A stretch of DNA of 49,735 nucleotides from Chrysochromulina tobinii. Lineage: Eukaryota. The stretch's first letter is position 1. Every line of letters begins with the position of its first letter. Of this stretch, positions 27,804 through 42,395 are shown in pieces. The stretch spans positions 1-49,735 of the forward strand of contig JWZX01003376.1 of assembly GCA_001275005.1 (NCBI GenBank), written 5' to 3'. The notes below the pieces were generated by a model, which was not told where the DNA came from, searched no databases, and was given only the letters and a program-made list of their open reading frames with translations. Position numbers and translations under genes: made by a program.

Positions 27804-28022
27804 CAACTCGTCACGACTTCGCAGGTCCAAAAACAACGCGAGGTTTCCCACTCAGACGCGCAAACATAATCTGCGCAAACATAACTTGAAGGCGTCAATC
27901 GTGGCTCGCGGCCTCTTCGCGAAGGGACAAACTTGTCGACTTCTCCAAAACTTATTTTCTCGTCTCGCGCGAGTTTTGGAATCGTGGTGGTGGTGCAGAG
28001 AGGGGAGGCGCCGCGAATCGCC

Positions 28023-30110
28023 ATGGGTGCAGGTCCAAGCAAAGCTTCGAAGGACCGGCGGCTCCTGCTCGATGAGCTAACCGATGTCCGCATCAAAAAC
28101 ATCGAGAAAAGGTATCAAATGCATGAGGAGCTCGGCACAGGCTTCTCCTCAGCTGTATTGCTTGCCTCCCGGCGCGACATCCCCGGCAAAGAGGAAGTAG
28201 CACTCAAAGTACTGCCACTAAAGGTGCTGCTGAATCCCAAGAGCGAACTGCTCGACACGTTGAAAACCGAGGTCGAGCTGCTTCGTGGCAAGGTCAAACA
28301 TCCGTGTATCGTGAGACTCATCGAGACCTGTTGCGACGCCAAGTCGTTTTTCATCGTGCTGGAGCCACTCAAAGGGGGCGACCTGCTTGGAGCCCTCGCA
28401 AATCGAAGGTTCTTTCCGGAAGATCTTGCGAAAGGCATCTTTGCTAACGTGGTGCTCGCGGTCGAGCACTTGCACAAGTGCAAGCTGGTGCACCGGGACA
28501 TCAAGGCTGAGAACCTGTGCACCATCGATGTCAACTCCACCGAGTACAAGCTCATCGACTTCGGCTCGTGCGCTGACACTTCTGCTGGTGACGTGAATGG
28601 GCTAGCCGCGACCGCCCACTACTGTGCGCCCGAAGTGCTCAAGTCCGCAGGGTATGCTGAGGCGACGGGCAAAAAGGGCGCCGTCTCGATCATCGGCAGC
28701 GGCCTCGGATACAATGGCCCTGCAAGCGACATGTGGTCGCTCGGCGTGCTGCTCTTCTTCATGCTCACACGCAAGCTTCCCTTCGGCTCGACGATGGACA
28801 CCAGCGGCGTCATCGTGAAGCGCATCGTCGAAACCACGTCGGTCGACCACGCTGGAGCAGCCCCGGAGCGATGGTCAGACCTTTCGGCCGAGGCGAAGGA
28901 TCTGATCGAGTCGTTGATGAAAATGGAGCCGACGGAGCGACCGACGTGGGACGGCGTGCGATCGCACCCGTGGTGCCGCGATGCGATCGAGGCGCGCGAA
29001 GCTGTGGTCGGGAAAGGAGCACCGCCCCCTACTCCAGCGAAGGCGATCGAACCGTTATTGGACGCACTTCGAGTGGCGGAGGAGGAGGAGGCGGCGGCGG
29101 CGTCCGAGGCGGCAGAAAAGGCCGCGGCCGAGGCGGCTCATTTGGCGGCGGTGGCGTCTGCCTTGGCCGAAGCCGCTGCGGCTTCGCCGGGTGACGAGGG
29201 AGCGCGTGACGCGTCTGTGGCGGCGGCGGCTAGGGCGGAGGCGGCTAAGGCGGCAGCGGAGGCGGCCAAGGCAGCTAAGGATGAGTCGGTGGCGGACCGC
29301 CTCCTGGCGGCAGCGCCATCACCTGCGGTGGCGGAGGCGGGAGAGCCGGCGCCTGCCCCAGTCAAGCCGCTCACCAAGAAGGAGAAACTGGCGGCTGCCA
29401 AGGCGGAAAAGGAGAAAGTGGCCGCTGCTAAGGCGGAAAAAGAGGCGGCGGCAAAGGCGAAGAAGGAGGAGGCGGCAGCGGCGGCGAAGGCGAAGATAGA
29501 GGAGGCGAAGCGTCTGAGGGATGAGGCGATCGCCAAGAAGAAGAAGCCTGCCAAGGGAGCCAAGGGAGATAAAGGGGATACCCTCTTCAAAGTAGGCAAA
29601 GTGGAAGATGTCGCTCCCGTCGCCGCCGAGGGTGAGGCAGTAGGGGCCGAGGGTGAGTCAGCAGGGGCCGAGGCGGCAGAGGCACCTGCGAGTGCCGATG
29701 ACATGGCCCCTGATATGAGTACGAAGGAGGCAGCGCCTGCGGTGGAGGCTGCTGCTGAGAGCCAATCGGCCCCAGCCAAGCCACTCACCAAGAAGGAGAA
29801 AGCGGCGGCTGCCAAAGCTGCCAAGGAGGCAGCTGCCAAGGCGGAAAAGGAGAAAGTGGCCGCTGCTAAGGCGGAAAAGGAGGCGGCGGCAATAGCGAAG
29901 AAGGAGGAGGCGGTGGCGAAGGCGAAGGCGAAGACTGAGGAGGCGGCTGCTGCCAAGGCTGCCAAAGCGGCTGCTGCCAAGGCTGCTAAGGATGCAAAGA
30001 AAGCCAAGAATAACAAGGCCGACTCCGCCGACTCAACGCCTCAGCAGCGGGAGAAGGTGGAAGATACGGCTGTTGAAGGCGAGGGCGAGAAAGTCGTCCA
30101 GATGATCTGA
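28023..30110 (+). CDS. CAMK-like Ser/Thr kinase with a putative N-myristoylation site and an Ala/Lys/Glu-rich repetitive tail
   Basis: MGAGPSK start, then LGTGFSS, VALK, HRDIKAEN, DFG, APE and DMWSLGV. The KPLTKKEK-AAAKA blocks are duplicated. Confidence 0.92.
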   Translation: MGAGPSKASKDRRLLLDELTDVRIKNIEKRYQMHEELGTGFSSAVLLASRRDIPGKEEVALKVLPLKVLLNPKSELLDTLKTEVELLRGKVKHPCIVRLIETCCDAKSFFIVLEPLKGGDLLGALANRRFFPEDLAKGIFANVVLAVEHLHKCKLVHRDIKAENLCTIDVNSTEYKLIDFGSCADTSAGDVNGLAATAHYCAPEVLKSAGYAEATGKKGAVSIIGSGLGYNGPASDMWSLGVLLFFMLTRKLPFGSTMDTSGVIVKRIVETTSVDHAGAAPERWSDLSAEAKDLIESLMKMEPTERPTWDGVRSHPWCRDAIEAREAVVGKGAPPPTPAKAIEPLLDALRVAEEEEAAAASEAAEKAAAEAAHLAAVASALAEAAAASPGDEGARDASVAAAARAEAAKAAAEAAKAAKDESVADRLLAAAPSPAVAEAGEPAPAPVKPLTKKEKLAAAKAEKEKVAAAKAEKEAAAKAKKEEAAAAAKAKIEEAKRLRDEAIAKKKKPAKGAKGDKGDTLFKVGKVEDVAPVAAEGEAVGAEGESAGAEAAEAPASADDMAPDMSTKEAAPAVEAAAESQSAPAKPLTKKEKAAAAKAAKEAAAKAEKEKVAAAKAEKEAAAIAKKEEAVAKAKAKTEEAAAAKAAKAAAAKAAKDAKKAKNNKADSADSTPQQREKVEDTAVEGEGEKVVQMI

Positions 30111-30573: not shown

Positions 30574-33500
30574 TCAAATCTCGGTATCCATCCCCACCTC
30601 CTCTTCGTCATCGTCGTCGTCCACGGCCGCCATGCGCGGAACCTTGCCAACCGTGCTCGCGGCGTGCCCTCCGCCGGGCTTTATGTGCACCTGCCGTCAT
30701 CAGAGGTCATCAGAGGTCATCAGAGGTCATCAGAGGTCATCAGAGGTCATCAGAGGTCATCACAGCTCCCTCCTCACAGGGCTCCTTGCGCACCTGTCGG
30801 CGCCAGTCCGAGCCCTCTTCTTTCCACGAAAACCAATCTTCCCACTGATCTGAGCCGTCGGGCAGCACGATGCGTGCCTGGAAAGTGCCATCGACGAGGA
30901 CGGCAATCACCTCGGCTGGCACCCACACAGCCGGCGCGTCCTCGCTTGCCGCGACTTCAACCTCCACCTTATCGCCCTCGAGAGGCCACTGCCAGCCGTT
31001 GGGCGGCGGCGATGAGTGCGGCGCGGCAACGAGCTTGGAGCGCTCCTCGCGCCGCCCGCCCGCAGCCTTCGCGCGATAGCCTTTGACGGGCTTCTCGGTC
31101 GGCTGTGGGTTGTCGTCTGGCTCGTCCGGTGCGCTCTTCTTGGCCTTCCGCGGTGACATTTTCTTCGCGATAAGAGCTTCGGCGGGTCCAGCTTCGCCTG
31201 TAGCCTGTTCGACTTCTGGCTCCGGGGCGCTCTCGTCCTTGGCAACCCGCGCGCGCGCTTGTTCCAAACGCTCGATGATCTCGGCCTCGCGACCCCGCAC
31301 GACCCAGCTCTTGGTCGGCACGTCCCAAAACCACTTGGGCTGCGGGCGCAGCTGGCTCGCGTCTACTGTATGGGTTGCTTCAAAGTGAACCGACTTGACC
31401 ACCCATTGGGGCGGCGCGAGCTCCGGAAGCGCCTCGGTGACCAACACGTCCCACCAGCCGCCGATGAACGAGAGTTGCACGGTATCATTCACGCGGAGCT
31501 TGGCCGCCCAGCCAGCGTCAACAGGTGGCAGCGGCAGAGGGCGCACCTTGCGCACAAACTCGAGCTGCTGCAGCCCGGGCATCTGCGCGGTATCGTCCAT
31601 CTCGTCGACGTCGTCCCCGTCCGCGAGGAGTTCTTCATACTCCACGCGTATCTTATCGGGCGCCTTGTGATCAAGTACGCGCGCTTCGAACCAGGCGCCG
31701 AAGTGCTCGGCGCTATCCTGTAGCACCTCCACGCTCATCCCGATCGGCCAATCATACGCCAACCTCTCAAGCGCCTCTTTATTCGCGAGCGCGGCGGCGC
31801 CCTTGCCCTTGGGCGCTGCCGGGACGGCGCCTTTGCCCTTGGCGCCCTTGGCTGTCTTGCCTGCCGAGCCGCCGCCGCTCGCGGCGCTGCCCGTGCTCAC
31901 GCGGCGGCGCTTGGCATCGCTGGCGCCGGGCGTGCCGTCGACGCCGCCCTCGTCGTCGTTACTCTCGTCGTCGCCCGGGGTCATAGTGGTGCTCGCCTTC
32001 CTCGCAGCAGCACGCTTCTGGCCAGCGGACCCGCCGGCGTCGCTCTTTCGCCCCTTGGCTCCCTTCTTGAACCCCCTCTCCTGCAGCTGCTCGTCGATTG
32101 GCGCCTTGATGTCGAGCTGGTATTTAGGGTCGGAGAGCACAGCCAAGTACAGGGTGAGCATCTCGTCGAGCTCCTTGAGCAGCGTGGCCTCGTCGAGGTT
32201 CGCGCCGTACTCGTACATGCGCGAGATGATGCATGCCTTCTCGTAGTCACCCGCGAGCCCGCCGTCAGCGCGCAGGTCGATCTCGCCGTTGGTGTCCCAG
32301 CCTTCGAGCTCGCCTGCCGTCGTGAGCTCGCTGAACTTGGAGCGTACGAAGTTGGCCACATGCTCCAAATGACGCATCGCTGCAGAGGAGCCGAGCACCG
32401 CCTTGAGCTTCGACGTGCCCTGCCCGAGGCACAAGTAGACGGCGGACATGTCGGCTCGGAAGAGGTACTGCATGTACAGGCCCGCCTGGGTGGACTCGAG
32501 CGGGTCAGACACAGCGATCCAGGGCACCTTGGCCCAGCCGCCGCAGCCGCACGAGGAGCGCACAGCGAATGCCTCGCCAACATTGCGCTGCAGCCCGAGC
32601 TCGATCGATTCCATCAGCGTCATCCAGCGGTGCCCTTTCTTGAACGCCTCGTGCTTCTTCCGATAGTCGTACTCGTTCATCATCTTGGCGATGCCGTCGG
32701 CGAGCCGCGTGATGTGCTGGATGTTATTCGCCAGGCACAGCTTGAGCCGCACGCGCACCGAGCCGTTTTTCTCGACCATCGTCCACAGGCTCGCGTCCAC
32801 GACGCGGCTCTTCTCGAGGGCGCGGACCTTGAGCATGTGTCGCATCTTGAAAGCCTTCTCCAGCTCCGCCTTCTCCTTCTCCTTGCGCTCGAGCTCCGCC
32901 TCGAGCGCCGCCTTCTGGGCAGCCTCCTCCTGCTCGGCCCGCCGCTTGCGTTCTTCGCGCTCGGCTTCACGCGGCGCTTTCTCGGCACGGCGGGCGGCCT
33001 TCACCCTCTCCCTCTCCTCACGCTCCATCTCGTGCACATGCATCTTGGCCGCCCGCATCACAAGCTCATCGAGATACTTGGCCACGGTCGCCCTGTCGCG
33101 CTCGTCCCGCACAGCCTGCTTCTTGGCCGCAATCTGCTCTGCTTTCTCACGCTTCTCACGTTCCTTGGCCGCATCCCGCTCGATCTTCTCACGCTCCTTT
33201 GCAACACTCGCTGCCTTGCGCCCACGCTCCTTAGCTTCGCCTGCCTGCCGGCGCAGCTCCGCCAAACGCTCGGGATCCTTACACGCCTTCGCCTCGTGTA
33301 TGAGCGACCGGAGCTCTTCGCGCGCGAGCCGCTCCTCCTCGCACACCGGCTCGCTGCCCGGCGCGCGAAGCCCACCCGGCCCGCCGCTGCCCTCTCCCTT
33401 CTTGGGTGCGGGGGCGCCGGCGGCGTGGTTGCCCTCGAGCCCCGTGATCTCCGACGGGCGCATCCTGTCAAACCCATCCGGATAGAGAGCGACCACAAAC

Positions 33501-36500
33501 GACTCGCGCTCCGCCGCCGCCACCGCGTCCTCGCCACCGGCGCCGCTCGAATGGCTGGCCTCGTTTTGCTTGAGCACACACTTCTGCCGCTTCGTGTTAG
33601 GTCCCCCGAACTTCGGCTTGTCAAGGCAAAATACGCACTCGCCACAGTCGTCCATCGCGAAACCAGGGGCGCTCACGCTACTCGGCGCGGCGCCGCCATC
33701 AGAGTCTTTGGTAGAAGTGGACGCGCCGCCAGACGAAGCGCTCGCCGCCCCGCTGGACACGCCGCCAATCCCGAGGATGGGCAGGTGGTTCAGCAGGTGC
33801 TTGAGGCGGCGCAGCATCGCGCGCGGCTCCACATAGTAGAGACGCGTGGCGCCGCCAGCGCCGCCACCGTTGCCGTCGAGATGGCGCGTGGCGAGATCGT
33901 CGAGATCGACGCGCGTGCCGTCAGGCGCCGTCGCGGGCGTTTCCTCGTCCATCTCCATGGGCACCGCGACCGATTCGTCTGCGACGGGCGACGTGGTACG
34001 CGAAGTCTTGATGGGAAGCTCGACACCTTCCAGAGCGATGTCGGCAAACACGCCCAGCGAGGCATCGGACAATATAGCCGCCCAGTTGGCATACCCGTGC
34101 GTGTGCACGCCCAAGAGCAACGCCGCGTCCTCGGCACTAGTCCACGTGCGGATGGGGACCATGCCTGCGACCGCGGCTGTCGAGGCAACCGGGACTCGAG
34201 ACGGCGCCTCATCCGGCGCCCGAGACGACGCCTCATCCGGCGCCGATGGCGCCGCAGCGGCCACCGCGTCCTCGTCCTCGTCGTCGAGCTCGACCACGTT
34301 AGCATCGCCCTCAGAGTCAGCGGCGGCCGCCTTGGTCTCGGCGAGTGTGAAGACGGGGCGTGCAAACTTGATCGGCAAGAGCGGCGCCACGAAGCCGCTG
34401 GAGGGAGCCGCCTCGACTGCGGCGTGCAGCCGGCGCAGGTCGATGAGCTGCGCGGTGAGCTGCTTCGCCTTCGAGATGATGCGGGTGTCGTACCATGTGG
34501 CCGCGGAGAGCGGCTGCGTGCGGCTCACCTCCTCGGGCACCTCGGGTGCTTCCTCTCCTGCCATCCGGTGCAAGCAGGTACCATCAATTGCAAACGGTTG
34601 CAATCAGTTGCCATCCAGTGCAATCGGGTGCAATCCGGTGCAATCCGGTGCAATCCGGTGCAATCCGGTGCAATCCGTTGCAATCCGTTGCAATCCGTTG
34701 CAATCCGGTGCAATCAGGTGCAATCGGGTGCAATCAGGTGCAATCAGGTGCAATCGGGCGCCCCTCACCCGCACGCAGCGCTTGGCCGGTCGTCACGAAG
34801 AACCAGAGGCGCGCGAGCTTCGCCGGGTCGGGCGGCTGCAGCTCTTGCTTCGCCTTGTCGACAAACTCGAGCACTTCATTGTCATACTCATCAGCGGGGG
34901 GGCGGCAGGCCGTTCGCAGGGCCAGCGCCGCAGTGTACAAGCTCGCGCGCTCCACCTCCTCGACAGTGCGAAAGCCGAGACGAGCATGCAGCCGCTCGGC
35001 GCGCCCAAAGCCGAAGGCGAAGAGGCCCGAGTAGAGAGCGTTGAGCTGCGCGCGGTTCCACTCGTTCGCCTCGCGCTTTCGCTTTGACTCCTTGGCCTCT
35101 TTGGCCGGCGCTTCGTCGCCCCAAGACGGCGCCAAGCGCTGTGGCTCACCGACAGAGCGGCGCGAGCGCCGCCGGCCGTACTCGTCTTCGTAGTCGGCCT
35201 CGTCGTCCTCCTCGCCTCCAGCCTCCTCATCACCTAGGACCTTGGTCCAAAAATCGGGATCGTTGAGGTCGAGCTGTGCCTCGGTTCCGTTGTGCGAGAC
35301 GAACGCGGCCTGCGCAAAGGTGCCCTTGACCTTCGCCTTTTCGTCTTCCTCGGTGCCCGTCTTCTTTGTGGCGCAACGGCCGAGGATCGAGTCGATGTCC
35401 TCTGCCGAGAAGGCAGCGATGCGCTCGTCGTGCTCGTCGGTGAAGAGCTCCTGCGCGCCGTGCTTGAGCAGCCCCTCGAGCTCCGCCGCCCGCTCGGCCT
35501 CCTTGACCTTGCCTCCCTTGGCCTTGACACTCGTGCTACCGCCGCCCTCGTCGTCCGCAGCGCCAGCAGTCGTCTGCGCAGCGTAGTCGCCTCGGCCGAT
35601 GATGGCCTGTTCGAGGCCGAGCTTGAAGTTGGCGCGCTCGTACATGGTCTGCTCGTACGTCCCCTTGGTGATCAGTCGGTAGACGGAGACCACCTTCGTC
35701 TGGCCGATGCGGTGGCAGCGCGCCTGCGCTTGCACGTCGTTCTGCGGGTTCCAGTCGGGGTCGTAGATGATGACCGTGTCGGCGGCCGTCAAGTTGATCC
35801 CCACACCGCCCGCACGTGTGCCGAGCAGGAACAGGAATGTCTTCGACTCCGGGTGCGAGAAGCGATCGATGGCCGCCTGGCGCTTCTCGCCAGTGATCGA
35901 GCCGTCGAGGCGCTCGTACGAGTACCGCGAGAGCTTCAGGTAGTCTTCGAGCAGGTCGAGGAGCATCGTGAATTGGGAGAAGAGGAGGACGCGGTGGCCC
36001 TGCTGCTGCAGCTTGGGCAGCAGCTTGTCGAGCAGCACGAGCTTACCCGACGAGGCTATCAGCCGCTCGAGATAGTCGCTGTCCGCGGCTGTGTGCAGGC
36101 GCTCGGCCTGTATCACGCCCTTGATGAGGAACGGGTGGTTGCAGCAGTGGCGCAGCTGCATCGCAAGGTTGTTGAACGAGGGGCCGTTGACGTGGCTCGC
36201 GCCGCGCAGCAGCAGCGATCGATTCTGCTCGAGCAGCGCGCGGTACGTCTGCTTCTGGTAGTTGGTGATCTCGACGGTCACCAGCGTCTCCTCCATCGGC
36301 GTGATGCCGAGGTCGACGTCGCCCTTGGTGCGCCGAAGCAGGTACGGGCGAAGCCGCTCGGTGAGCGCTTCCACCTGCGCAGCCGAGGTCATGTCGCCAT
36401 ACTGCTCGAGGAACGTGTCGATTGAGGGGAAGCCCTCGGCGTCCAGCAGGTTCAGAATCGACCAGAGCTCGCCCACGTTGTTCTGAAGCGGCGTGCCCGT

Positions 36501-38642
36501 CAGCGCGAGCGTCGGAATCGGCCCAAGCGATTGGAGGGCCGCGAGCGCCTTGCCAAACTTGTTCTTGAGCCGGTGCGCCTCGTCGAGGATGAGGTACGCC
36601 CAGCGCTCCACTTTTCGGAACGTCTCGGCGCACGCGGTGAATGTCTCGTACGTCGTGATGCACACGTCAAAGTTTGGGCGCGCGAGGGTCGCGCCGAAGC
36701 CCTTGGCCTTCGTGAGCGCGCGCGGCTTCGAGGCCCACTCGTAGTCGAGAAGGACCTCGCGCGCGTCCGCGGGGCCATGGAAGAGCACCGCATGCAGCGA
36801 CGTCCAATCGCGCACCTGAGGAGGGAAGCAATCAGTGGTCATCAGTGGTCATCAGTGGAAGAGCACCGCATGCATCGACGTCCCATCGCGCACCTCGCGC
36901 TGCCAGTGCGGCACCGTCGAGAGCGGCACCACGATCAGGTACGGTCCCTTAGCCTTGTGGAACGTGTGCAGGCAGTGCAACAGCGTCGCCGACTGCGCCG
37001 TCTTCCCGAGGCCCATCTCGTCACCCAGGATGACGGATCGCCCTCTGACGTAGTTCCAGCGCATCCACTGCACGCCCGCGCGCTGGTAATCGCGTAGCGT
37101 GCGCCCGCCCTTGAAGCTCATCGGCACGTCAACTTCAGGCGTTGGCGGCTCGGCATCGCTAGCAGCCCTGTTGGCAAGCACCCTCTGACGCTCCTCATAC
37201 GCGGCGATCGCGTCGGCACCAGCGATGCGTGCATACTCCCACGTGCACCCCTCGTACCCGAGGCCTCGCCACTTGACCAGGTAGTAAGTCTCGATGTCGT
37301 CCTCCTCGCCATCCTCGTCGCCCTCGGCCGCCTCCGTCGCGGCCCGCGGCACCATGGCAGCGGGCTCGGCCGAGTCTGACGAATCTTGACGAACTTTGGC
37401 AGCGGGCTCGGCCGAGTCTGACGAATCTTGACGAACTTTGGCAGCGGGCTCGGCCGAGTCTAGCGCCTCCTGCTCCTCGCCCTCCTCGACGAACAGCACG
37501 TCGCCCTCGTCGGCCTCCTCGCCCTCGGCCCCAGCCGACTCGTCCTCGTCGACCCCCTTGGGCTTGCGCTTCTTGGGCGAGGGCGGCGGAGGCGCGGCTG
37601 ACTCACTGTGCACCGCAAGGACGCGCTCCACCTCCATGCACGACAAGTACGGGTCGACGAGGCCGCCATCTTTCTCGCGCTTGCGCAGGAAGTTGGCAAG
37701 GCGCTGCTTGGAGAGGCGGCCGTTCTTCTCGATCTCAGCCGCGCTCAGCCAGAGCGCGTGCACGTGCGCCAGGCCGCGCTCCTTGCACAGGTACTCCTCT
37801 TCGCCCGGCGCGCCGCCCGCCACCATCCTCCCATCGAGGATCTTGTCAATACTGTTGAGCTCGTCCTCGGTGGGCTCGACGTTCTTCGCCAGCCCGAGCG
37901 CCGCCTCTGCGGATGCCTTGCCCTGGCTCTTGAGCTTCTTCTCCTTGGGCCCCTTGGCTACTCGGCCGCCCAGCTCGGGCGCCAGCCGATTGATCGCCTC
38001 GAGCTTGAGCTTGCACGTTTTGTGGCGCTTATTCTCGCCGCCAAATTTGGGCTTGTCGCGGCAGTTGATGCATGTGCCGCAGTCGAGCCGCGCGTTGATC
38101 TCCTGCTGGGCGGAGCGGGCCGCCTCGCTCTTGCCAGCCGGTCGATTGGTGGCCGAAGCACAGCTCGGGCAAAACCAGTCACCCTCGGGCACGGAAGCCA
38201 GCGGCGGCGTCAGGCATTGCGTGTGGAACGCCTTCGGGCACGCGTCGCAGAGGAGCAGCTCGTTGCCTTCGATCCACGACTCGACGCCACACACCTCACA
38301 CGTCTCGCCTCTATCTTCCTCCTTGTCCTCCTGAAATAAATCGTCCTCGTCCTTCTCGACATAGGACTTGCCGCCACGCGTCGGGCGCACCGAGCGCCCG
38401 GAGCGCCCGCCACCCCCTCCAGCGCCTCCCTTGTCGTCCGGATGCAACGCATCGAGCAGCGCCGATGCCTCTCTGAGAGCCTGAGCCGCCGCCGCCTCTT
38501 CATCTGCCGGCGCCACCATGTCCATGGCGGCGTCCTCATCGTCGAGCCGCTGGCGCTTGACCACGGAGGCCCCCTTGTCGTCGAGGCCGAGGGCTTCGGG
38601 CGGGTTTGAAGCCAACGGATGTCGCTTGTTCGCGCTGCTCAT
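30574..38642 (-). CDS. CHD-type SNF2 chromatin remodeller (~2558 aa): PHD, CXXC, 2 chromodomains, SNF2 ATPase, SANT/SLIDE-like, CXXC, coiled coil, McrB-N (DUF3578)-like, Agenet/Tudor; introns 36816-36893, 34558-34768 and 30691-30793
   Basis: [38 protein letters not shown] and [26 protein letters not shown]...[12 protein letters not shown]...WFCPSC. The three GT..CAG introns join ORFs 36852-38642, 34734-36842 and 30740-34603 plus a last exon ending ...GMDTEI* into a frame-consistent 7677-nt CDS. Confidence 0.9.
30697..30763. repeat. 10-bp tandem repeat (TCATCAGAGG)n, intronic
   Basis: About six perfect copies inside intron 30691-30793. Confidence 0.9.
34590..34757. repeat. 10-bp tandem repeat (CAATCCGGTG-like)n, intronic
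   Basis: About 16 degenerate copies inside intron 34558-34768. Confidence 0.9.
37355..37461. repeat. 42-bp in-frame tandem repeat (2.5 copies) in the CHD chromodomain region
   Basis: Encodes [14 protein letters not shown] twice plus DSAEPAA. Confidence 0.85.
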
Positions 38643-38876
38643 GTCGCTGGTACTCGTTCGCCTCGGTGGTGTTCGCTTTGCGCGCGCGAAGGTGCGCCGC
38701 AGCAGCGCGCTATGAAAACGCGGTGGAAGTCATGGAATTCGTCTCCACACACCTCCCCTCCTCGGCTTCAATTGATGAAACTGCACAAGGGAAAAACGTC
38801 GTCGCGGGCACGACAGAGCGTCAATGTAACTCCCAAGCTACTTGACATGTAACAAGCCTTTTCACCACCTTCGTCC

Positions 38877-41800
38877 ATGGCGGCGTCCTCATCGTCTAGA
38901 CCACAATACAGCCAGGCGTCGAGCCTCGTGTTTTGCGTCGACTGCCTCGTGTGGGCGAGGCTGCGCGGCTTCCCTGCATGGCCGTCGCAAGTCCTATCAA
39001 TGCCAAGCGACACCAGCAAACCTAAGGCCCGCATGGAGGTCATCTTCCTCGGGACGCACGACAAGTCGTTCGTAAGCGTGGCCGATGCAGCTCCGTTTGA
39101 CCCCGCCGACCGCGAGACCGGGGATCCGCGCTTCATCCCTCCCAAGAAACCGTCGCTGCGCGCCTCTTTTGAAGCCGCGCTCGCGGAAGCGGAGGAATTG
39201 CTCAAGCCGCCGCCACCACCACCGAAAGTCAAGAGCAAGGCGGCCAAGTCGAAGAGCAAGTCGGCCGTCGATCCGCAAGCCCAGGCCGAGCTCGACCGAC
39301 TATCCGCGTATGTCGAGGCACGCGGCGGCACGAGCGACATGCTCGAAGGGTGGAATTGCATCCCGAGCAACCGCACTGGGCGAAAGCCGGGCGAGCCCAG
39401 GGTAGACGTGCAGTACATTGAGCCGGACGGCAACAAGCATCGCTCGCGCAAGGCGGTGGCACGGGCGCTCGGCCTGCTCGACGACGACGAGGAGGAGGAG
39501 GCAGAGCCTCAGGAGGAGGAGGCAGGGCCGCAGCCGACGAGTGAATCGGCCCAGCTAGAGCCGTCGGAGCCTGTGCGCCGCAGCAGCCGTCCCGTCGTGC
39601 CTCTCGCGCGCTTCGGTGTGGACGACGACGACAACGAAGAGGAGTTTAGCGCGCGGTCCGCAAAGGCCGCCGCGCCGACCGCGCTGCCGGCCGGCAGTGG
39701 CGGTGAAGGCAGCCTAAAGCGCGGCGGGCGGGTGCGTTCTTCGCTAACGATGACGCGCCGGAGTCGTTCAGAGCTGCCGCCGCTGCGCAACACGGAGGCG
39801 CGTGCGATTGACCATTACGGATTCGCGGAGGTGCCGTCGATGCTGTCGGCGGACCTGTGCAAGCTGATCGCGGCCGAGCCGATGGATGATGGGGAGGGTA
39901 TCTCGAACGCCTTCCAGAAATCCCTCGAGGGTCCACTCCTCGCAGAATGCGAGAAGGCCCTCGGTGCCTCTTCAGCGGTCGCCGACGCCATCGAGGCCGC
40001 CTTTGGCGTTCGGCGCTTCGCAGTGCGTACAATCAAGATCCTGATGACCGAATTCTGCGCCGCGCCGCAGATCCCGCACGCGGACGACTTTTGCAACCGC
40101 GAGCTCTTCGGCATCGCCCATTTGCTGCCCAACCAGCCCCAGACTGAATGCCTGCCGTACAAGCATGACGCGAACTACCCGACGGGCGTGGCCGCCGAGT
40201 GCGACGCATGCGGTCGGTGGCTGCCGCTGCCGGACAAGATTGCACGCCGGCGCGCGCACTTGGTGAGCTTCACATGTCGGGACGCCAATCGATGTTGCAT
40301 CGGGGAGCCGCCCACCTCGGCGCCCGCGTCCTCCCTCGCGGCCGCCGCGTCTTCGGTCCAGCTCTCGCCGCACTCGCCCACCGCTCGACGCGGGCGAGGC
40401 GGCGACGACGACGATGAGGGTCTCGTGCCGTCGCCTTCGGCGTCCACCAACGTAGCCGAGGTTGGTGGCGGCGGCGGCGGCATGAGCCCGCCGCCATGCA
40501 AGCGGATCCAGCCGGGCGATCGCGTCCAGGGCAAGTACCAGGGGCAGATAGGTGGTCTGAACTGGTTCGACGGCGAGGTGAGGGCGGTGCACGAGGACGG
40601 CACGTGCGATCTGCACTATGACGATGGCGACTACGAGGAGCGCGTGGCACCAAGTTTCGTCAAGGTGGTCGCCTCTGCTATGGAGGAGACCAGGGAGCGG
40701 GAGGAGGTGGAGGAGATGTCGGAGATTGATGCGGCCGAGGAGGCGCGCCTACGAGCCATCGACGATGAGTTTGCCATCGACGTGCTCAACGCCTTTGGCG
40801 AGCTGCTCTACCGCCCCGCCAACGTCATCGACCGCATGCAGCCTATCGGAGCCCCTCCAAGAGCAGGAGATGGCATCGTGGCGCTGCCGACGCTCGTGCA
40901 CCGCGGGCCGGGCGGCAACGACGCGGGCGCGATGGAGCGCAGCGTACTCTTCTTCACCATCGTGCCTCTCTTTGACGACGACGACGGCTTCGAAGACACG
41001 ATTGGCCAATATGATCCAGACGCGCAGATCCACGCGGGCTGGCTGATCTGGCGAACAGGCGCCCTGCTGGGTGACGCCCGGATCGAGCGCATTATGGACG
41101 CGTACGGACAGCTAGGCTTCGAGCTGCGCGCCTTTGGCAAGGGCGCGAAGCTCCTCTTCAAGACAGATAATGGCGAGGCCGCGGCCAAGCCCAAGCGGCG
41201 GCGCCTCACCAAAAAGGGTGCCGACGCGGCTGCTGCTTCTGCTTCTGCGGCTGCTGCTGCTGACAGCAAGCACAAGCCCAAGGGGAAGCCCGGGAGTCGC
41301 AGCGGCCCCTCGGGCCGCACTGGGCGGCGCAAGCCGAAGTACGAGGTGGACGACGATGAAGACGAAGAGGACAAGGACGAGGAGGTGGAGGAGTCCCTTC
41401 GCGCTAGGCCGGTCAATTCCAAGGTAGACGCGGTCGAGCCGGGCGCAGACACGCGGAGCGCGAAGGCCGAGGCGAAGGTGCACGCGGCCGCCGCCAAGAA
41501 GGCTACCGCCGCCGAGGACATGGCGCTCGGCAAGGCGCTCGGCAAGGCCAAGGCCAAGACCGACGCCTCGCATGAAGTGAAGATGGACGCCGATGGCGGC
41601 AGCGGCGGCGGCGGCGGCGGCGGCGAGTCGAGCCAGCATTGGAAGTGGACGAGCCTTGGCGTCGGCGACTCTGTGGAAGATACGAGCGCGGCGGACTGCG
41701 AGGGTGTGGTTGGCACTGCTGCTGAGGGCGCAGCAGATGGCTTGGGGCGTCAAGTGGACGCCCCTACATTCGCCCCTGCAGCGTCCGAACGCTCTTCGTC

Positions 41801-42395
41801 GGCGCCGCGTCCTCGCCCCTTTGTGTGCCGCTACCCGGGCTGTGGTAAGGAATACGTCAACCTCGATGGCTACCGGCGGCACGCGAATAACTCAGGCCAT
41901 GGGTACCTGAACCCACGCAAAGCTGGCGCATCGACAGCACAGGGATCTGCTGCGCCCGACGAATACACCGTATCCGAGACGATGATGGGGCCAGCGATGA
42001 TGGCAGTGCGAGCGCCACAGCCACCATCAGCCCAGCTTCGGACGGAAGTGCAGATGGAAGAGTCCGACGGAACGAACCTGGTCGCCAAGGCCGAAGCCGA
42101 GCTCAGGGCAGCGATGGCTGCGGGCGACCCCGTGCGAATTAAGGCCGCGATCGCCCGTGCCTCCGCGACACTGGCCAAGATGACCGCCCGCGGCAGCCAC
42201 GAGGTCGCCCAGCACCAGGTCAGCCAGCACCAGGTCGGCCAGCACGGTGCCGATGGCCAGCATATGCCCGAGATCGCGTATCCGATGGCCTATCCGATGG
42301 CCTATCCGATGGCCTACCCTTCGGAACTCGAGAGTGCATGGCACCATTACGGTGGCATGATGAGCGTGCCAGAGGGTTGTGGGATAATGGATTAA
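38877..42395 (+). CDS. Multidomain chromatin protein: PWWP, MBD-like, 2OG-Fe(II) dioxygenase (PhyH-like) with inserted zf-CW-like and Tudor domains, and a C2H2 finger
   Basis: PWWP: VWARLRGFPAWP. MBD-like: LEGW..R..VDVQYIEPDGNKHRSRKAVARAL. Dioxygenase: QIPHAD / LVHRG / ERSVLFF. CW-like: ECDACGRWLPLP..FTC. Tudor: PGDRVQGK..WFDGEV..DLHYDDGDYE. C2H2: FVCRYPGCGKEY..H..H. Confidence 0.8.
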   Translation: MAASSSSRPQYSQASSLVFCVDCLVWARLRGFPAWPSQVLSMPSDTSKPKARMEVIFLGTHDKSFVSVADAAPFDPADRETGDPRFIPPKKPSLRASFEAALAEAEELLKPPPPPPKVKSKAAKSKSKSAVDPQAQAELDRLSAYVEARGGTSDMLEGWNCIPSNRTGRKPGEPRVDVQYIEPDGNKHRSRKAVARALGLLDDDEEEEAEPQEEEAGPQPTSESAQLEPSEPVRRSSRPVVPLARFGVDDDDNEEEFSARSAKAAAPTALPAGSGGEGSLKRGGRVRSSLTMTRRSRSELPPLRNTEARAIDHYGFAEVPSMLSADLCKLIAAEPMDDGEGISNAFQKSLEGPLLAECEKALGASSAVADAIEAAFGVRRFAVRTIKILMTEFCAAPQIPHADDFCNRELFGIAHLLPNQPQTECLPYKHDANYPTGVAAECDACGRWLPLPDKIARRRAHLVSFTCRDANRCCIGEPPTSAPASSLAAAASSVQLSPHSPTARRGRGGDDDDEGLVPSPSASTNVAEVGGGGGGMSPPPCKRIQPGDRVQGKYQGQIGGLNWFDGEVRAVHEDGTCDLHYDDGDYEERVAPSFVKVVASAMEETREREEVEEMSEIDAAEEARLRAIDDEFAIDVLNAFGELLYRPANVIDRMQPIGAPPRAGDGIVALPTLVHRGPGGNDAGAMERSVLFFTIVPLFDDDDGFEDTIGQYDPDAQIHAGWLIWRTGALLGDARIERIMDAYGQLGFELRAFGKGAKLLFKTDNGEAAAKPKRRRLTKKGADAAAASASAAAAADSKHKPKGKPGSRSGPSGRTGRRKPKYEVDDDEDEEDKDEEVEESLRARPVNSKVDAVEPGADTRSAKAEAKVHAAAAKKATAAEDMALGKALGKAKAKTDASHEVKMDADGGSGGGGGGGESSQHWKWTSLGVGDSVEDTSAADCEGVVGTAAEGAADGLGRQVDAPTFAPAASERSSSAPRPRPFVCRYPGCGKEYVNLDGYRRHANNSGHGYLNPRKAGASTAQGSAAPDEYTVSETMMGPAMMAVRAPQPPSAQLRTEVQMEESDGTNLVAKAEAELRAAMAAGDPVRIKAAIARASATLAKMTARGSHEVAQHQVSQHQVGQHGADGQHMPEIAYPMAYPMAYPMAYPSELESAWHHYGGMMSVPEGCGIMD

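What the first reader, a model, noticed from the sequence alone, without database searches (positions are those of the whole stretch)
32130..32720. Bacterial McrB-N (DUF3578)-like 5-methylcytosine reader domain embedded in a eukaryotic CHD remodeller
Seen: in frame within the CHD C-terminal region is [51 protein letters not shown]...[11 protein letters not shown]...[12 protein letters not shown]. From memory this closely follows the DUF3578/McrB N-terminal consensus (SxGxGxWAxVPWIxxxD...TxxGxYxxYLFxxDxxxVYLxLxQG...Y...LxxDLxxMLxxY). Known: in E. coli McrBC this domain binds and flips methylcytosine to target modification-dependent restriction. Canonical CHD remodellers lack it. Inference: a prokaryotic defence module was captured and reused as an epigenetic 5mC reader that steers nucleosome remodelling, much as SRA domains are used in both kingdoms.
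Basis: partly seen in the sequence, partly recalled or inferred. Interest (0 to 1): 0.92.

Follow-up and report, generated by a model that had tools for sequence, protein, structure and literature searches.

The report
Bacterial methyl-DNA reader inside algal remodeller
A spliced, expressed nucleosome-remodelling gene of a haptophyte-type alga contains a complete, strongly conserved domain otherwise typical of bacterial restriction enzymes, which likely lets the remodeller read modified cytosines in DNA, a kind of reader we found no report of in eukaryotes.

Summary
A minus-strand gene (38642-30574) has three GT-AG introns whose joints appear in RNA contigs. It gives a 2558-aa CHD-type remodeller: PHD, CXXC, two chromodomains, SNF2 ATPase, SANT-like HTH, CXXC, long charged helix, McrB-N/DUF3578 (PF12102, E 2e-33, profile 1-180 of 183), Agenet. 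The predicted domain's best structural match is E. coli McrB-N (Z 10.9). The fusion is no artefact: four other single-ORF ATPase+McrB-N proteins exist, two of them Prymnesium parvum paralogues, and one relative has introns inside the domain. Eukaryote-type copies form one clade (100/99) apart from bacterial ones. In three orthologues the DNA-facing core is 85-87% identical, as conserved as ATPase lobe 2. Pocket residues W49, Y64 and L68 (probably Y117) are kept. The intercalating Tyr41 is replaced by Cys and Asn43 mostly by Gly. Reading of 5mC is inferred only (about 55%): the one characterised member found is 11-16% identical, and methylation of this genome is not shown. No paper describing a eukaryotic McrB-N turned up in the searches.

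The parts
36894..38642 (-). Exon 1 (from the first ATG of the open frame; true start not mapped): PHD, CXXC, two chromodomains, start of the SNF2 ATPase with Walker A DEMGLGKT
38160..38300 (-). PHD finger (PF00628, E 5e-12)
38007..38090 (-). CXXC-type zinc finger, half unit with KFGG motif (profile 18-45 of 48; 25.8 bits, just under the 26.5 cut-off)
37188..37307 (-). Second chromodomain (best of two Chromo stretches; the first begins near 37853)
36816..36893 (-). Intron 1, 78 nt, GT..AG
   Evidence: RNA joint in 3 of 4 runs
34769..36815 (-). Exon 2: rest of SNF2 lobe 1 (DEAH) and Helicase_C lobe (QARCHRIG); closest solved structures CHD1 and CHD4
34558..34768 (-). Intron 2, 211 nt, GT..AG, joining the ATPase exon to the exon that bears McrB-N
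   Evidence: RNA joint in 4 of 4 runs
30794..34557 (-). Exon 3: SANT-like HTH, CXXC, charged helix, McrB-N, Agenet, all in one stop-free frame
34016..34147 (-). CHD1-type HTH / SANT-like element (PF23588, E 6e-7)
33569..33652 (-). Second CXXC half unit with KFGG (PF02008, E 9e-9)
32804..33343 (-). Charged, helix-favouring arm of about 180 residues (40 E, 24 K, 30 R, 33 A); its last 56 residues are modelled as one continuous helix
32735..32797 (-). Predicted two-strand hairpin before the domain, similar in the eukaryote-type relatives
32141..32686 (-). McrB-N / DUF3578 / ADAM domain. Codons: S70 32554, finger C73 32545, G75 32539, W81 32521, Y96 32476, Q98 32470, L100 32464, Y173 32245 (numbering of P0004)
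31541..31741 (-). Agenet (Tudor-like) domain (PF05641, E 9e-11)
30691..30793 (-). Intron 3, 103 nt, GT..AG
   Evidence: RNA joint in 3 of 4 runs, short side 30 letters, flagged 'between: not known'
30574..30690 (-). Exon 4, acidic tail and TGA stop

Best explanation
This is an expressed, spliced CHD-type nucleosome remodeller of a haptophyte-type alga that carries a complete McrB-N (DUF3578) domain, likely acquired once from a bacterial restriction system and likely kept as a base-flipping reader of methylated cytosine that would tie remodelling to modified DNA. Shown: gene structure, domain order, fold match, intact ATPase motifs, one eukaryotic clade, strong conservation of the DNA-facing core. 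Inferred: the PHD, chromo and Agenet domains would engage histone tails and the ATPase would slide the nucleosome. The charged helical arm would hold McrB-N away from the nucleosome, where it would grip the minor groove and test a flipped cytosine in the W/Y/L/Y pocket, most plausibly in linker DNA, where haptophyte CG methylation has been reported. The clade's Cys-Gly-Gly finger would change the sequence-context preference relative to E. coli's RmC.
For: Domain identity: (profile hits 3ssc at E 1.5e-7). Splicing. Single-ORF ATPase+McrB-N in P0009, P0010/P0044, P0099 and P0234; P0044 and P0099 are Prymnesium parvum KAL1519787.1 and KAL1518947.1. ATPase upstream on the same strand in 5 of 26 loci (one, L002, is nearly the window itself). 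Introns inside the domain in L014. Eukaryote-type rows on one side of a branch: SH-aLRT 100 for 34 of 152 rows, 100/99 for 22 of 68 rows. Core 85-87% identical in three orthologues against 81-83% for ATPase lobe 2 and 30-44% for the helical arm. Pocket residues in 26 non-redundant eukaryote-type rows: W81 25/26, L100 26/26, Y96 20/26 (F 5), S70 23/23, Y173 22/25. These match W49, L68, Y64, S38 and probably Y117 of PMC3424535. Other fusions are also to chromatin domains: bromodomain (P0013, P0073); Myb+chromo+zf-CW+SET (P0235). Internucleosomal 5mC in haptophytes: passages of PMC12344493 and PMC9998398.
Against: No binding data. Identity to E. coli McrB-N is 11-16%, and a single-sequence search of the PDB found nothing at E<=1. 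Tyr41 becomes Cys (22/26) and Asn43 becomes Gly (16/26) or K/R; Y41A and Y41Q compromise binding in E. coli (PMC3424535), although Gln is the commonest residue there in bacterial relatives (51/117). A strand position between the two methyl-contact residues is Gln (25/26) where bacteria have Val (98/117), which may change what the pocket holds. The Y117-Y173 match rests on position before strand 5; the sequence alignments did not give it. No CG periodicity above shuffles in the window (10 of 60 shuffles reached it; the GC control scored higher) and no CpG depletion (o/e 1.13). No hit is named Emiliania, the haptophyte with reported linker methylation. The second P. parvum paralogue is much more diverged (core 49%).
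Confidence: 0.55

Rival explanations
1. The domain binds DNA (or RNA) but reads a different mark, such as 4mC, 5hmC or an unknown base, or binds linker DNA regardless of modification, acting as an extra DNA grip like SANT-SLIDE.
For: Clade-wide changes at the finger (C73, G75) and on the pocket strand (Q98). E. coli McrB-N has been solved with 5hmC, 5fC and 4mC DNA (entry titles) and also flips unmethylated C in crystals (PMC3424535). The nearest bacterial subfamily is untested as far as my searches show.
Against: The two residues credited with methyl discrimination (Y64, L68) and the pocket Trp are retained almost without exception; a plain DNA grip would not obviously need them.
Confidence: 0.3
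2. The domain keeps a defence role: it recognises heavily modified foreign DNA (giant viruses, polinton-like viruses, transposons) and brings the remodeller to silence or package it.
For: Ancestral role in restriction. The search listing shows papers on methyltransferase-rich algal viruses, one infecting Chrysochromulina parva (listing only). Copies without an ATPase match (P0018, P0019; none within the 10-kb flanks of L008 and L012) and shuffled copies (P0006, P0235) exist.
Against: Conservation equal to the ATPase core in orthologues looks more like a housekeeping constraint than an arms race. No nuclease or McrB GTPase domain was found by Pfam in the eukaryote-type proteins scanned.
Confidence: 0.1
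3. The domain has lost nucleic-acid binding and serves as a protein-interaction module.
For: The fold is shared with proteins of other or unknown function (2a8e Z 9.7, 3mqz Z 9.0, secretion chaperones near Z 4-5).
Against: The best-conserved part is exactly the finger and pocket strands that face DNA in McrB-N.
Confidence: 0.04
4. The fusion is an assembly chimera or bacterial contamination.
For: The window appears to come from a mixed sample; no single RNA contig listed spans the whole gene.
Against: One stop-free frame with eukaryotic domains on both sides; GC like the flanks; RNA cover in all 30 bins and spliced joints; independent fusions including two in P. parvum megabase contigs; introns inside the domain in L014.
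Confidence: 0.01

Closest known systems
E. coli K-12 McrB N-terminal domain (DUF3578 / ADAM / PF12102; PDB 3SSC)
   Same: Fold (Z 10.9, 143 residues aligned), strand order, S38, G40, G42, P48, W49, G62, Y64, L68, D72; probably Y117 and the T85 hydroxyl.
   Different: 11-16% identity; finger Cys-Gly-Gly for Tyr-Gly-Asn; longer helical insert; extra N-terminal hairpin; joined to a chromatin remodeller, with no AAA+ GTPase or McrC nuclease.
Bacterial DUF3578 proteins fused to McrB-type AAA+ GTPases, EVE or PUA-like domains
   Same: Nearest relatives (up to 37-39% over the domain; 1824 hits at E<=0.001); share the SxGxGxWAxVPW and TQxGxYxxYLF motifs.
   Different: Finger mostly Gln/Lys/Ala followed by Gly-Asn; the eukaryote-type copies sit on a long separate branch (0.78 changes per column); no donor lineage resolved.
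CHD-family remodellers (CHD1, CHD3/4; sources name some cluster members CHD7)
   Same: Two chromodomains before an intact SNF2 ATPase, PHD finger, CHD1-type HTH/SANT element; best PDB hits CHD1 (E 2e-98) and CHD4 (E 2e-96).
   Different: Carries CXXC half units, a long charged helix, McrB-N and Agenet. From recalled knowledge, CHD4 reaches methylated DNA through separate MBD2/3 subunits of NuRD, not through a domain of its own.
SRA domain (UHRF1, SUVH; bacterial MspJI, SRA-HNH)
   Same: Precedent for a base-flipping 5mC reader used both in bacterial restriction and in eukaryotic chromatin (PMC3874153, passages).
   Different: Unrelated fold; McrB-N is described as a distinct fold that works from the minor groove (PMC3424535).

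Membership tests
McrB-N / DUF3578 (PF12102) | Full-length profile match above the curated cut-off | tested here: met
   115.7 bits vs 25; profile 1-180/183
McrB-N / DUF3578 (PF12102) | McrB-N fold: five-stranded antiparallel sheet backed by terminal helices | tested here: met
   Model pLDDT 91.6; top hit 3ssc Z 10.9, rmsd 3.4, 143 aligned; next 2a8e Z 9.7
McrB-N / DUF3578 (PF12102) | Pocket residues W49, Y64, L68 | tested here: met
   W81, Y96, L100
McrB-N / DUF3578 (PF12102) | Stacking residue Y117 | tested here: inconclusive
   Y173 is conserved (22/25 eukaryote-type, 114/117 bacterial-type) and lies four residues before strand 5, as Y117 does; sequence alignments placed Y117 elsewhere
E. 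coli-type McrB-N mechanism | Intercalating finger Tyr41 and Asn43 | tested here: not met
   Cys 22/26 and Gly 16/26; most bacterial family members also lack Tyr there
E. coli-type McrB-N mechanism | Preferential binding and flipping of 5mC | not testable with these tools
   Needs biochemistry
   No AAA domain in the three frames of the gene; none among 22 other window ORFs scanned
CHD remodeller | Tandem chromodomains N-terminal to a SNF2 ATPase | tested here: met
   Two Chromo stretches, SNF2 and Helicase_C
CHD remodeller | Intact catalytic motifs (Walker A, DEAH, motif VI) | tested here: met
   DEMGLGKT 541, DEAH 661, QARCHRIG 947
CHD remodeller | Subfamily (CHD1/2, CHD3-5, CHD6-9) | tested here: inconclusive
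   PDB hits CHD1 and CHD4 nearly tied; sources name members CHD7; no ATPase tree was built
CHD remodeller | ATP-dependent nucleosome sliding | not testable with these tools
   Needs assay

The most novel reading that the evidence does not exclude
Haptophytes evolved a fourth structural class of eukaryotic methylcytosine reader, beside MBD, SRA and zinc fingers, by capturing a bacterial restriction domain. Mounted on a long helical arm of a CHD motor, it reads methylated linker DNA and spaces nucleosomes by it, and would be the missing effector between linker CG methylation and nucleosome positioning in these algae.
Probability: 0.3. Interest if true: 0.92.

Novelty: new variant of a known kind. 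Interest (0 to 1): 0.78.

Why it matters
McrB-N was described as a third, prokaryotic fold for 5mC recognition (PMC3424535), and a census of McrBC systems left eukaryotes out (PMC11090510, passage). A conserved eukaryotic branch wired directly to a nucleosome motor would be a new reader class and a new case of restriction-system parts becoming epigenetic machinery. It also makes an open question testable: haptophytes are reported to methylate linker DNA in step with nucleosome positions, and this protein is a concrete candidate for an active link. A culturable carrier exists (Prymnesium parvum) and the 190-residue domain is small enough for a simple binding assay.

Tried and rejected
Single-sequence PDB search: no hit at E<=1; the profile was needed. 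No whole genome is held, so DNMT content, other readers and paralogue number in this organism were not checked. CG periodicity in the 50-kb window: not above shuffles (150-200 bp band 1.13 vs 1.02+-0.10, 10 of 60; 160-185 bp band 7 of 60), while the GC control exceeded them (1 and 0 of 60); the test is weak and gives no support. Viral carrier: 0 of 18 pattern matches in viral contigs confirmed; 0 BFVD matches at E<=0.001. Donor: six GTDB loci from five organisms of scattered groups at 31-53% best-segment identity; the sister groups of the eukaryotic clade are unresolved, and only the best 150 of 1824 hits were available, so no donor is named. Species: the Sec1 neighbour's named hits are P. parvum (53%) and a Chrysochromulina-like transcriptome entry whose name is cut off (52%); this gives the group, not the genus. 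The ESM Atlas shows only large, mainly bacterial clusters. Three look-ups of earlier scan findings returned nothing. Only 4 of the 14 RNA holder runs were laid, so full tiling of 34330-34449 by listed contigs is not shown (depth there is non-zero in all four). Complex prediction was not used: DNA cannot be a partner. Rows dropped: 11 fragments under 120 aa before the tree; near-duplicates over 95% before the residue counts (34 to 26).

Full report
Observation. Pfam MrcB_N (PF12102, DUF3578) matches at E 2.4e-33 over profile positions 1-180 of 183, at window 32141-32686. The same frame holds a CHD1-type HTH, a CXXC half unit and an Agenet domain. The two frames upstream hold PHD, CXXC, two chromodomains, SNF2 and Helicase_C. 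GC content is like the flanks. Pfam hits among 22 other long ORFs include eukaryote-typical domains (Sec1, Myb, EF-hand, PWWP), and none is a restriction-system part; 9 had no hit.

One transcript. Fourteen RNA runs hold 62-83% of the region's sampled words. All are 2019 mixed-culture libraries, possibly one campaign; four were laid. Joints with GT..AG ends on the minus strand appear for 34558-34768 in 4 of 4 runs, for 36816-36893 in 3 of 4, and for 30691-30793 in 3 of 4 (the last with a short side). Splicing at these joints gives one frame of 2558 aa from the ATG at 38642 to TGA at 30574. No listed contig spans the whole gene. One contig runs from 35726 across intron 2 into exon 3, which is stop-free through the domain. 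Walker A, DEAH and motif VI are intact. The closest solved ATPases are CHD1 and CHD4.

Fold. An AlphaFold2 model from a 70-row alignment has pLDDT 91.6. Foldseek ranks E. coli McrB-N entries first (3ssd, E 3.4e-4). The unbiased VIA-align search also ranks 3ssc first (Z 10.9, rmsd 3.4, 143 aligned), ahead of 2a8e (9.7) and 3mqz (9.0); PMC3424535 names 2a8e as the nearest structural neighbour of McrB-N. A profile search finds the same chains, but the single sequence does not. A second model shows the domain preceded by a two-strand hairpin and a continuous helix over the 56 residues included. That helix ends a charged stretch of about 180 residues; if helical throughout, it would span roughly 25 nm (my arithmetic, untested).

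A family, not an accident. The word-based search gave 17 longer proteins, 16 of eukaryote type and one bacterial McrB. Single open frames with ATPase and McrB-N are P0009, P0010/P0044, P0099 and P0234. P0044 and P0099 are Prymnesium parvum KAL1519787.1 and KAL1518947.1, on contigs over 3 Mb; these are the only organism names obtained for the family. Of 26 metagenome loci, 13 are of eukaryote type, and 5 show the ATPase upstream on the same strand within the DNA held; one of these is nearly the window itself. L014 has three repeat-filled introns inside the domain, which points to long residence in a nuclear genome. Other partners are a bromodomain (P0013, P0073) and Myb+chromo+zf-CW+SET (P0235, probably a shuffled copy). 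P0018 and P0019 have no other Pfam domain.

Origin. The full HMMER search found 1824 proteins at E<=0.001 and listed 150. Below the eukaryote-type hits, many carry AAA, EVE or PUA-like domains typical of McrB (57 scanned), and the nearest Atlas clusters are 93-100% bacterial. I labelled 34 rows eukaryote-type by score and context before building the tree. They fall on one side of a branch (SH-aLRT 100, stem 0.78; quick tree, 152 rows). A careful tree of 22 + 46 rows gave 100/99, though its bootstrap had not fully settled. A single acquisition from prokaryotes is the simplest reading. It is inferred: there is no root, the bacterial sample is biased towards the query, and no donor is resolved.

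PMC3424535 (parts 2 and 3 of 6 read) gives pocket walls W49, L68, Y117, Y64, backbone contacts at 82-85, and finger Y41/N43. In 26 non-redundant eukaryote-type rows, W81 is kept in 25, L100 in 26, Y96 in 20 (Phe in 5), and Y173 in 22 of 25. The Y117 match is by position before strand 5 and is not given by the alignments. The finger-plus-pocket core is 85-87% identical in three orthologues, against 81-83% for ATPase lobe 2, 65-73% for lobe 1 and 30-44% for the arm; the second P. parvum paralogue has 49%. Against a plain transfer of function: the finger is Cys (22/26) where E. coli needs Tyr, Asn43 is mostly Gly, and a pocket-strand Val is Gln (25/26). Bacterial relatives mostly have Gln, Lys or Ala at the finger, so the whole near subfamily departs from the characterised protein.

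Context. Passages of PMC12344493 and PMC9998398 report internucleosomal CG methylation in haptophytes (Emiliania), and DNMT5 and CMT-like enzymes in the group; they cite Huff and Zilberman 2014, which I did not read. Nothing here shows methylation in this organism: the CG periodicity test was negative and weak, and no hit was named Emiliania. The host is a haptophyte by inference from named homologues.

Novelty. Searches for DUF3578 with eukaryote, the four domain names, McrB with chromodomain and haptophyte, McrB with Emiliania and SNF2, and McrB with chromatin remodelling and algae listed no paper on such a fusion; I saw listings and abstract openings for these. Passages read in PMC11090510, PMC7641849, PMC3874153 and PMC10030836 treat the domain as prokaryotic, and PMC11090510 excluded eukaryotes from its census. 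The library lacks most subscription papers, including reviews of eukaryotic methylation domains that I recall but could not check. Supplements were not read, and automatic Pfam annotation already marks the domain on these proteins.

Verdict. This is a real, expressed, conserved fusion: a new variant of CHD remodeller with a domain of bacterial restriction ancestry. A 5mC-reading role is the most likely function (0.55), another base or unselective DNA binding next (0.30), defence (0.10), protein binding (0.04), artefact (0.01). Interest 0.78.

Noticed in passing
window 36816-36893, 34558-34768, 30691-30793 (minus strand); L014:1100-1690: Each of the gene's three introns begins with a diverged copy of the start of the next exon, followed by a short tandem repeat (36/38 identical for intron 1, 0 of 2000 random stretches as good; 22/38 for intron 3, 1 of 2000; weak for intron 2, 60 of 2000). 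Two of three introns in L014 look the same, with CCCTAA-like repeats. This suggests intron gain by local duplication plus repeat insertion. One paper search on this listed nothing.
   Followed up: partly
window 38853-42395 (+): Head-to-head neighbour whose open frame begins about 210 bp from the CHD start. It encodes a PWWP domain (E 1e-10), a weak MBD-like stretch (E 0.006, below cut-off) and, by eye, a Tudor-like segment: a second chromatin reader, possibly on a shared promoter.
   Followed up: partly
P0006; P0235 (the 9168-base contig L005 has the same length and source): Apparent exon-shuffled copies. P0006 is 98% identical over the domain to the window's protein but has an unrelated N-terminal part; P0235 places the domain among Myb, chromo, zf-CW and SET domains.
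   Followed up: partly
P0018, P0019, P0084/P0225; L008, L012: A sub-branch with McrB-N but no ATPase match within 10 kb, ending in a short conserved motif that by eye resembles an AP2-like DNA-binding element (recalled label, not tested).
   Followed up: no
window 38007-38090 and 33569-33652: Two half CXXC units with the KFGG motif, which in animals goes with binding of unmethylated CpG (recalled). The protein may thus carry sensors for both states; the units are absent from the P. parvum orthologue's Pfam list.
   Followed up: no
window 27885-30110 (+): Protein kinase with a long Ala/Lys/Glu-rich repeated tail, convergent with the CHD gene.
   Followed up: no
window 35500-36650 and 37860-38270: RNA contigs with many clustered substitutions map over the ATPase, chromodomain and PHD regions, suggesting an expressed paralogue, allele or related strain in the same cultures.
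   Followed up: no
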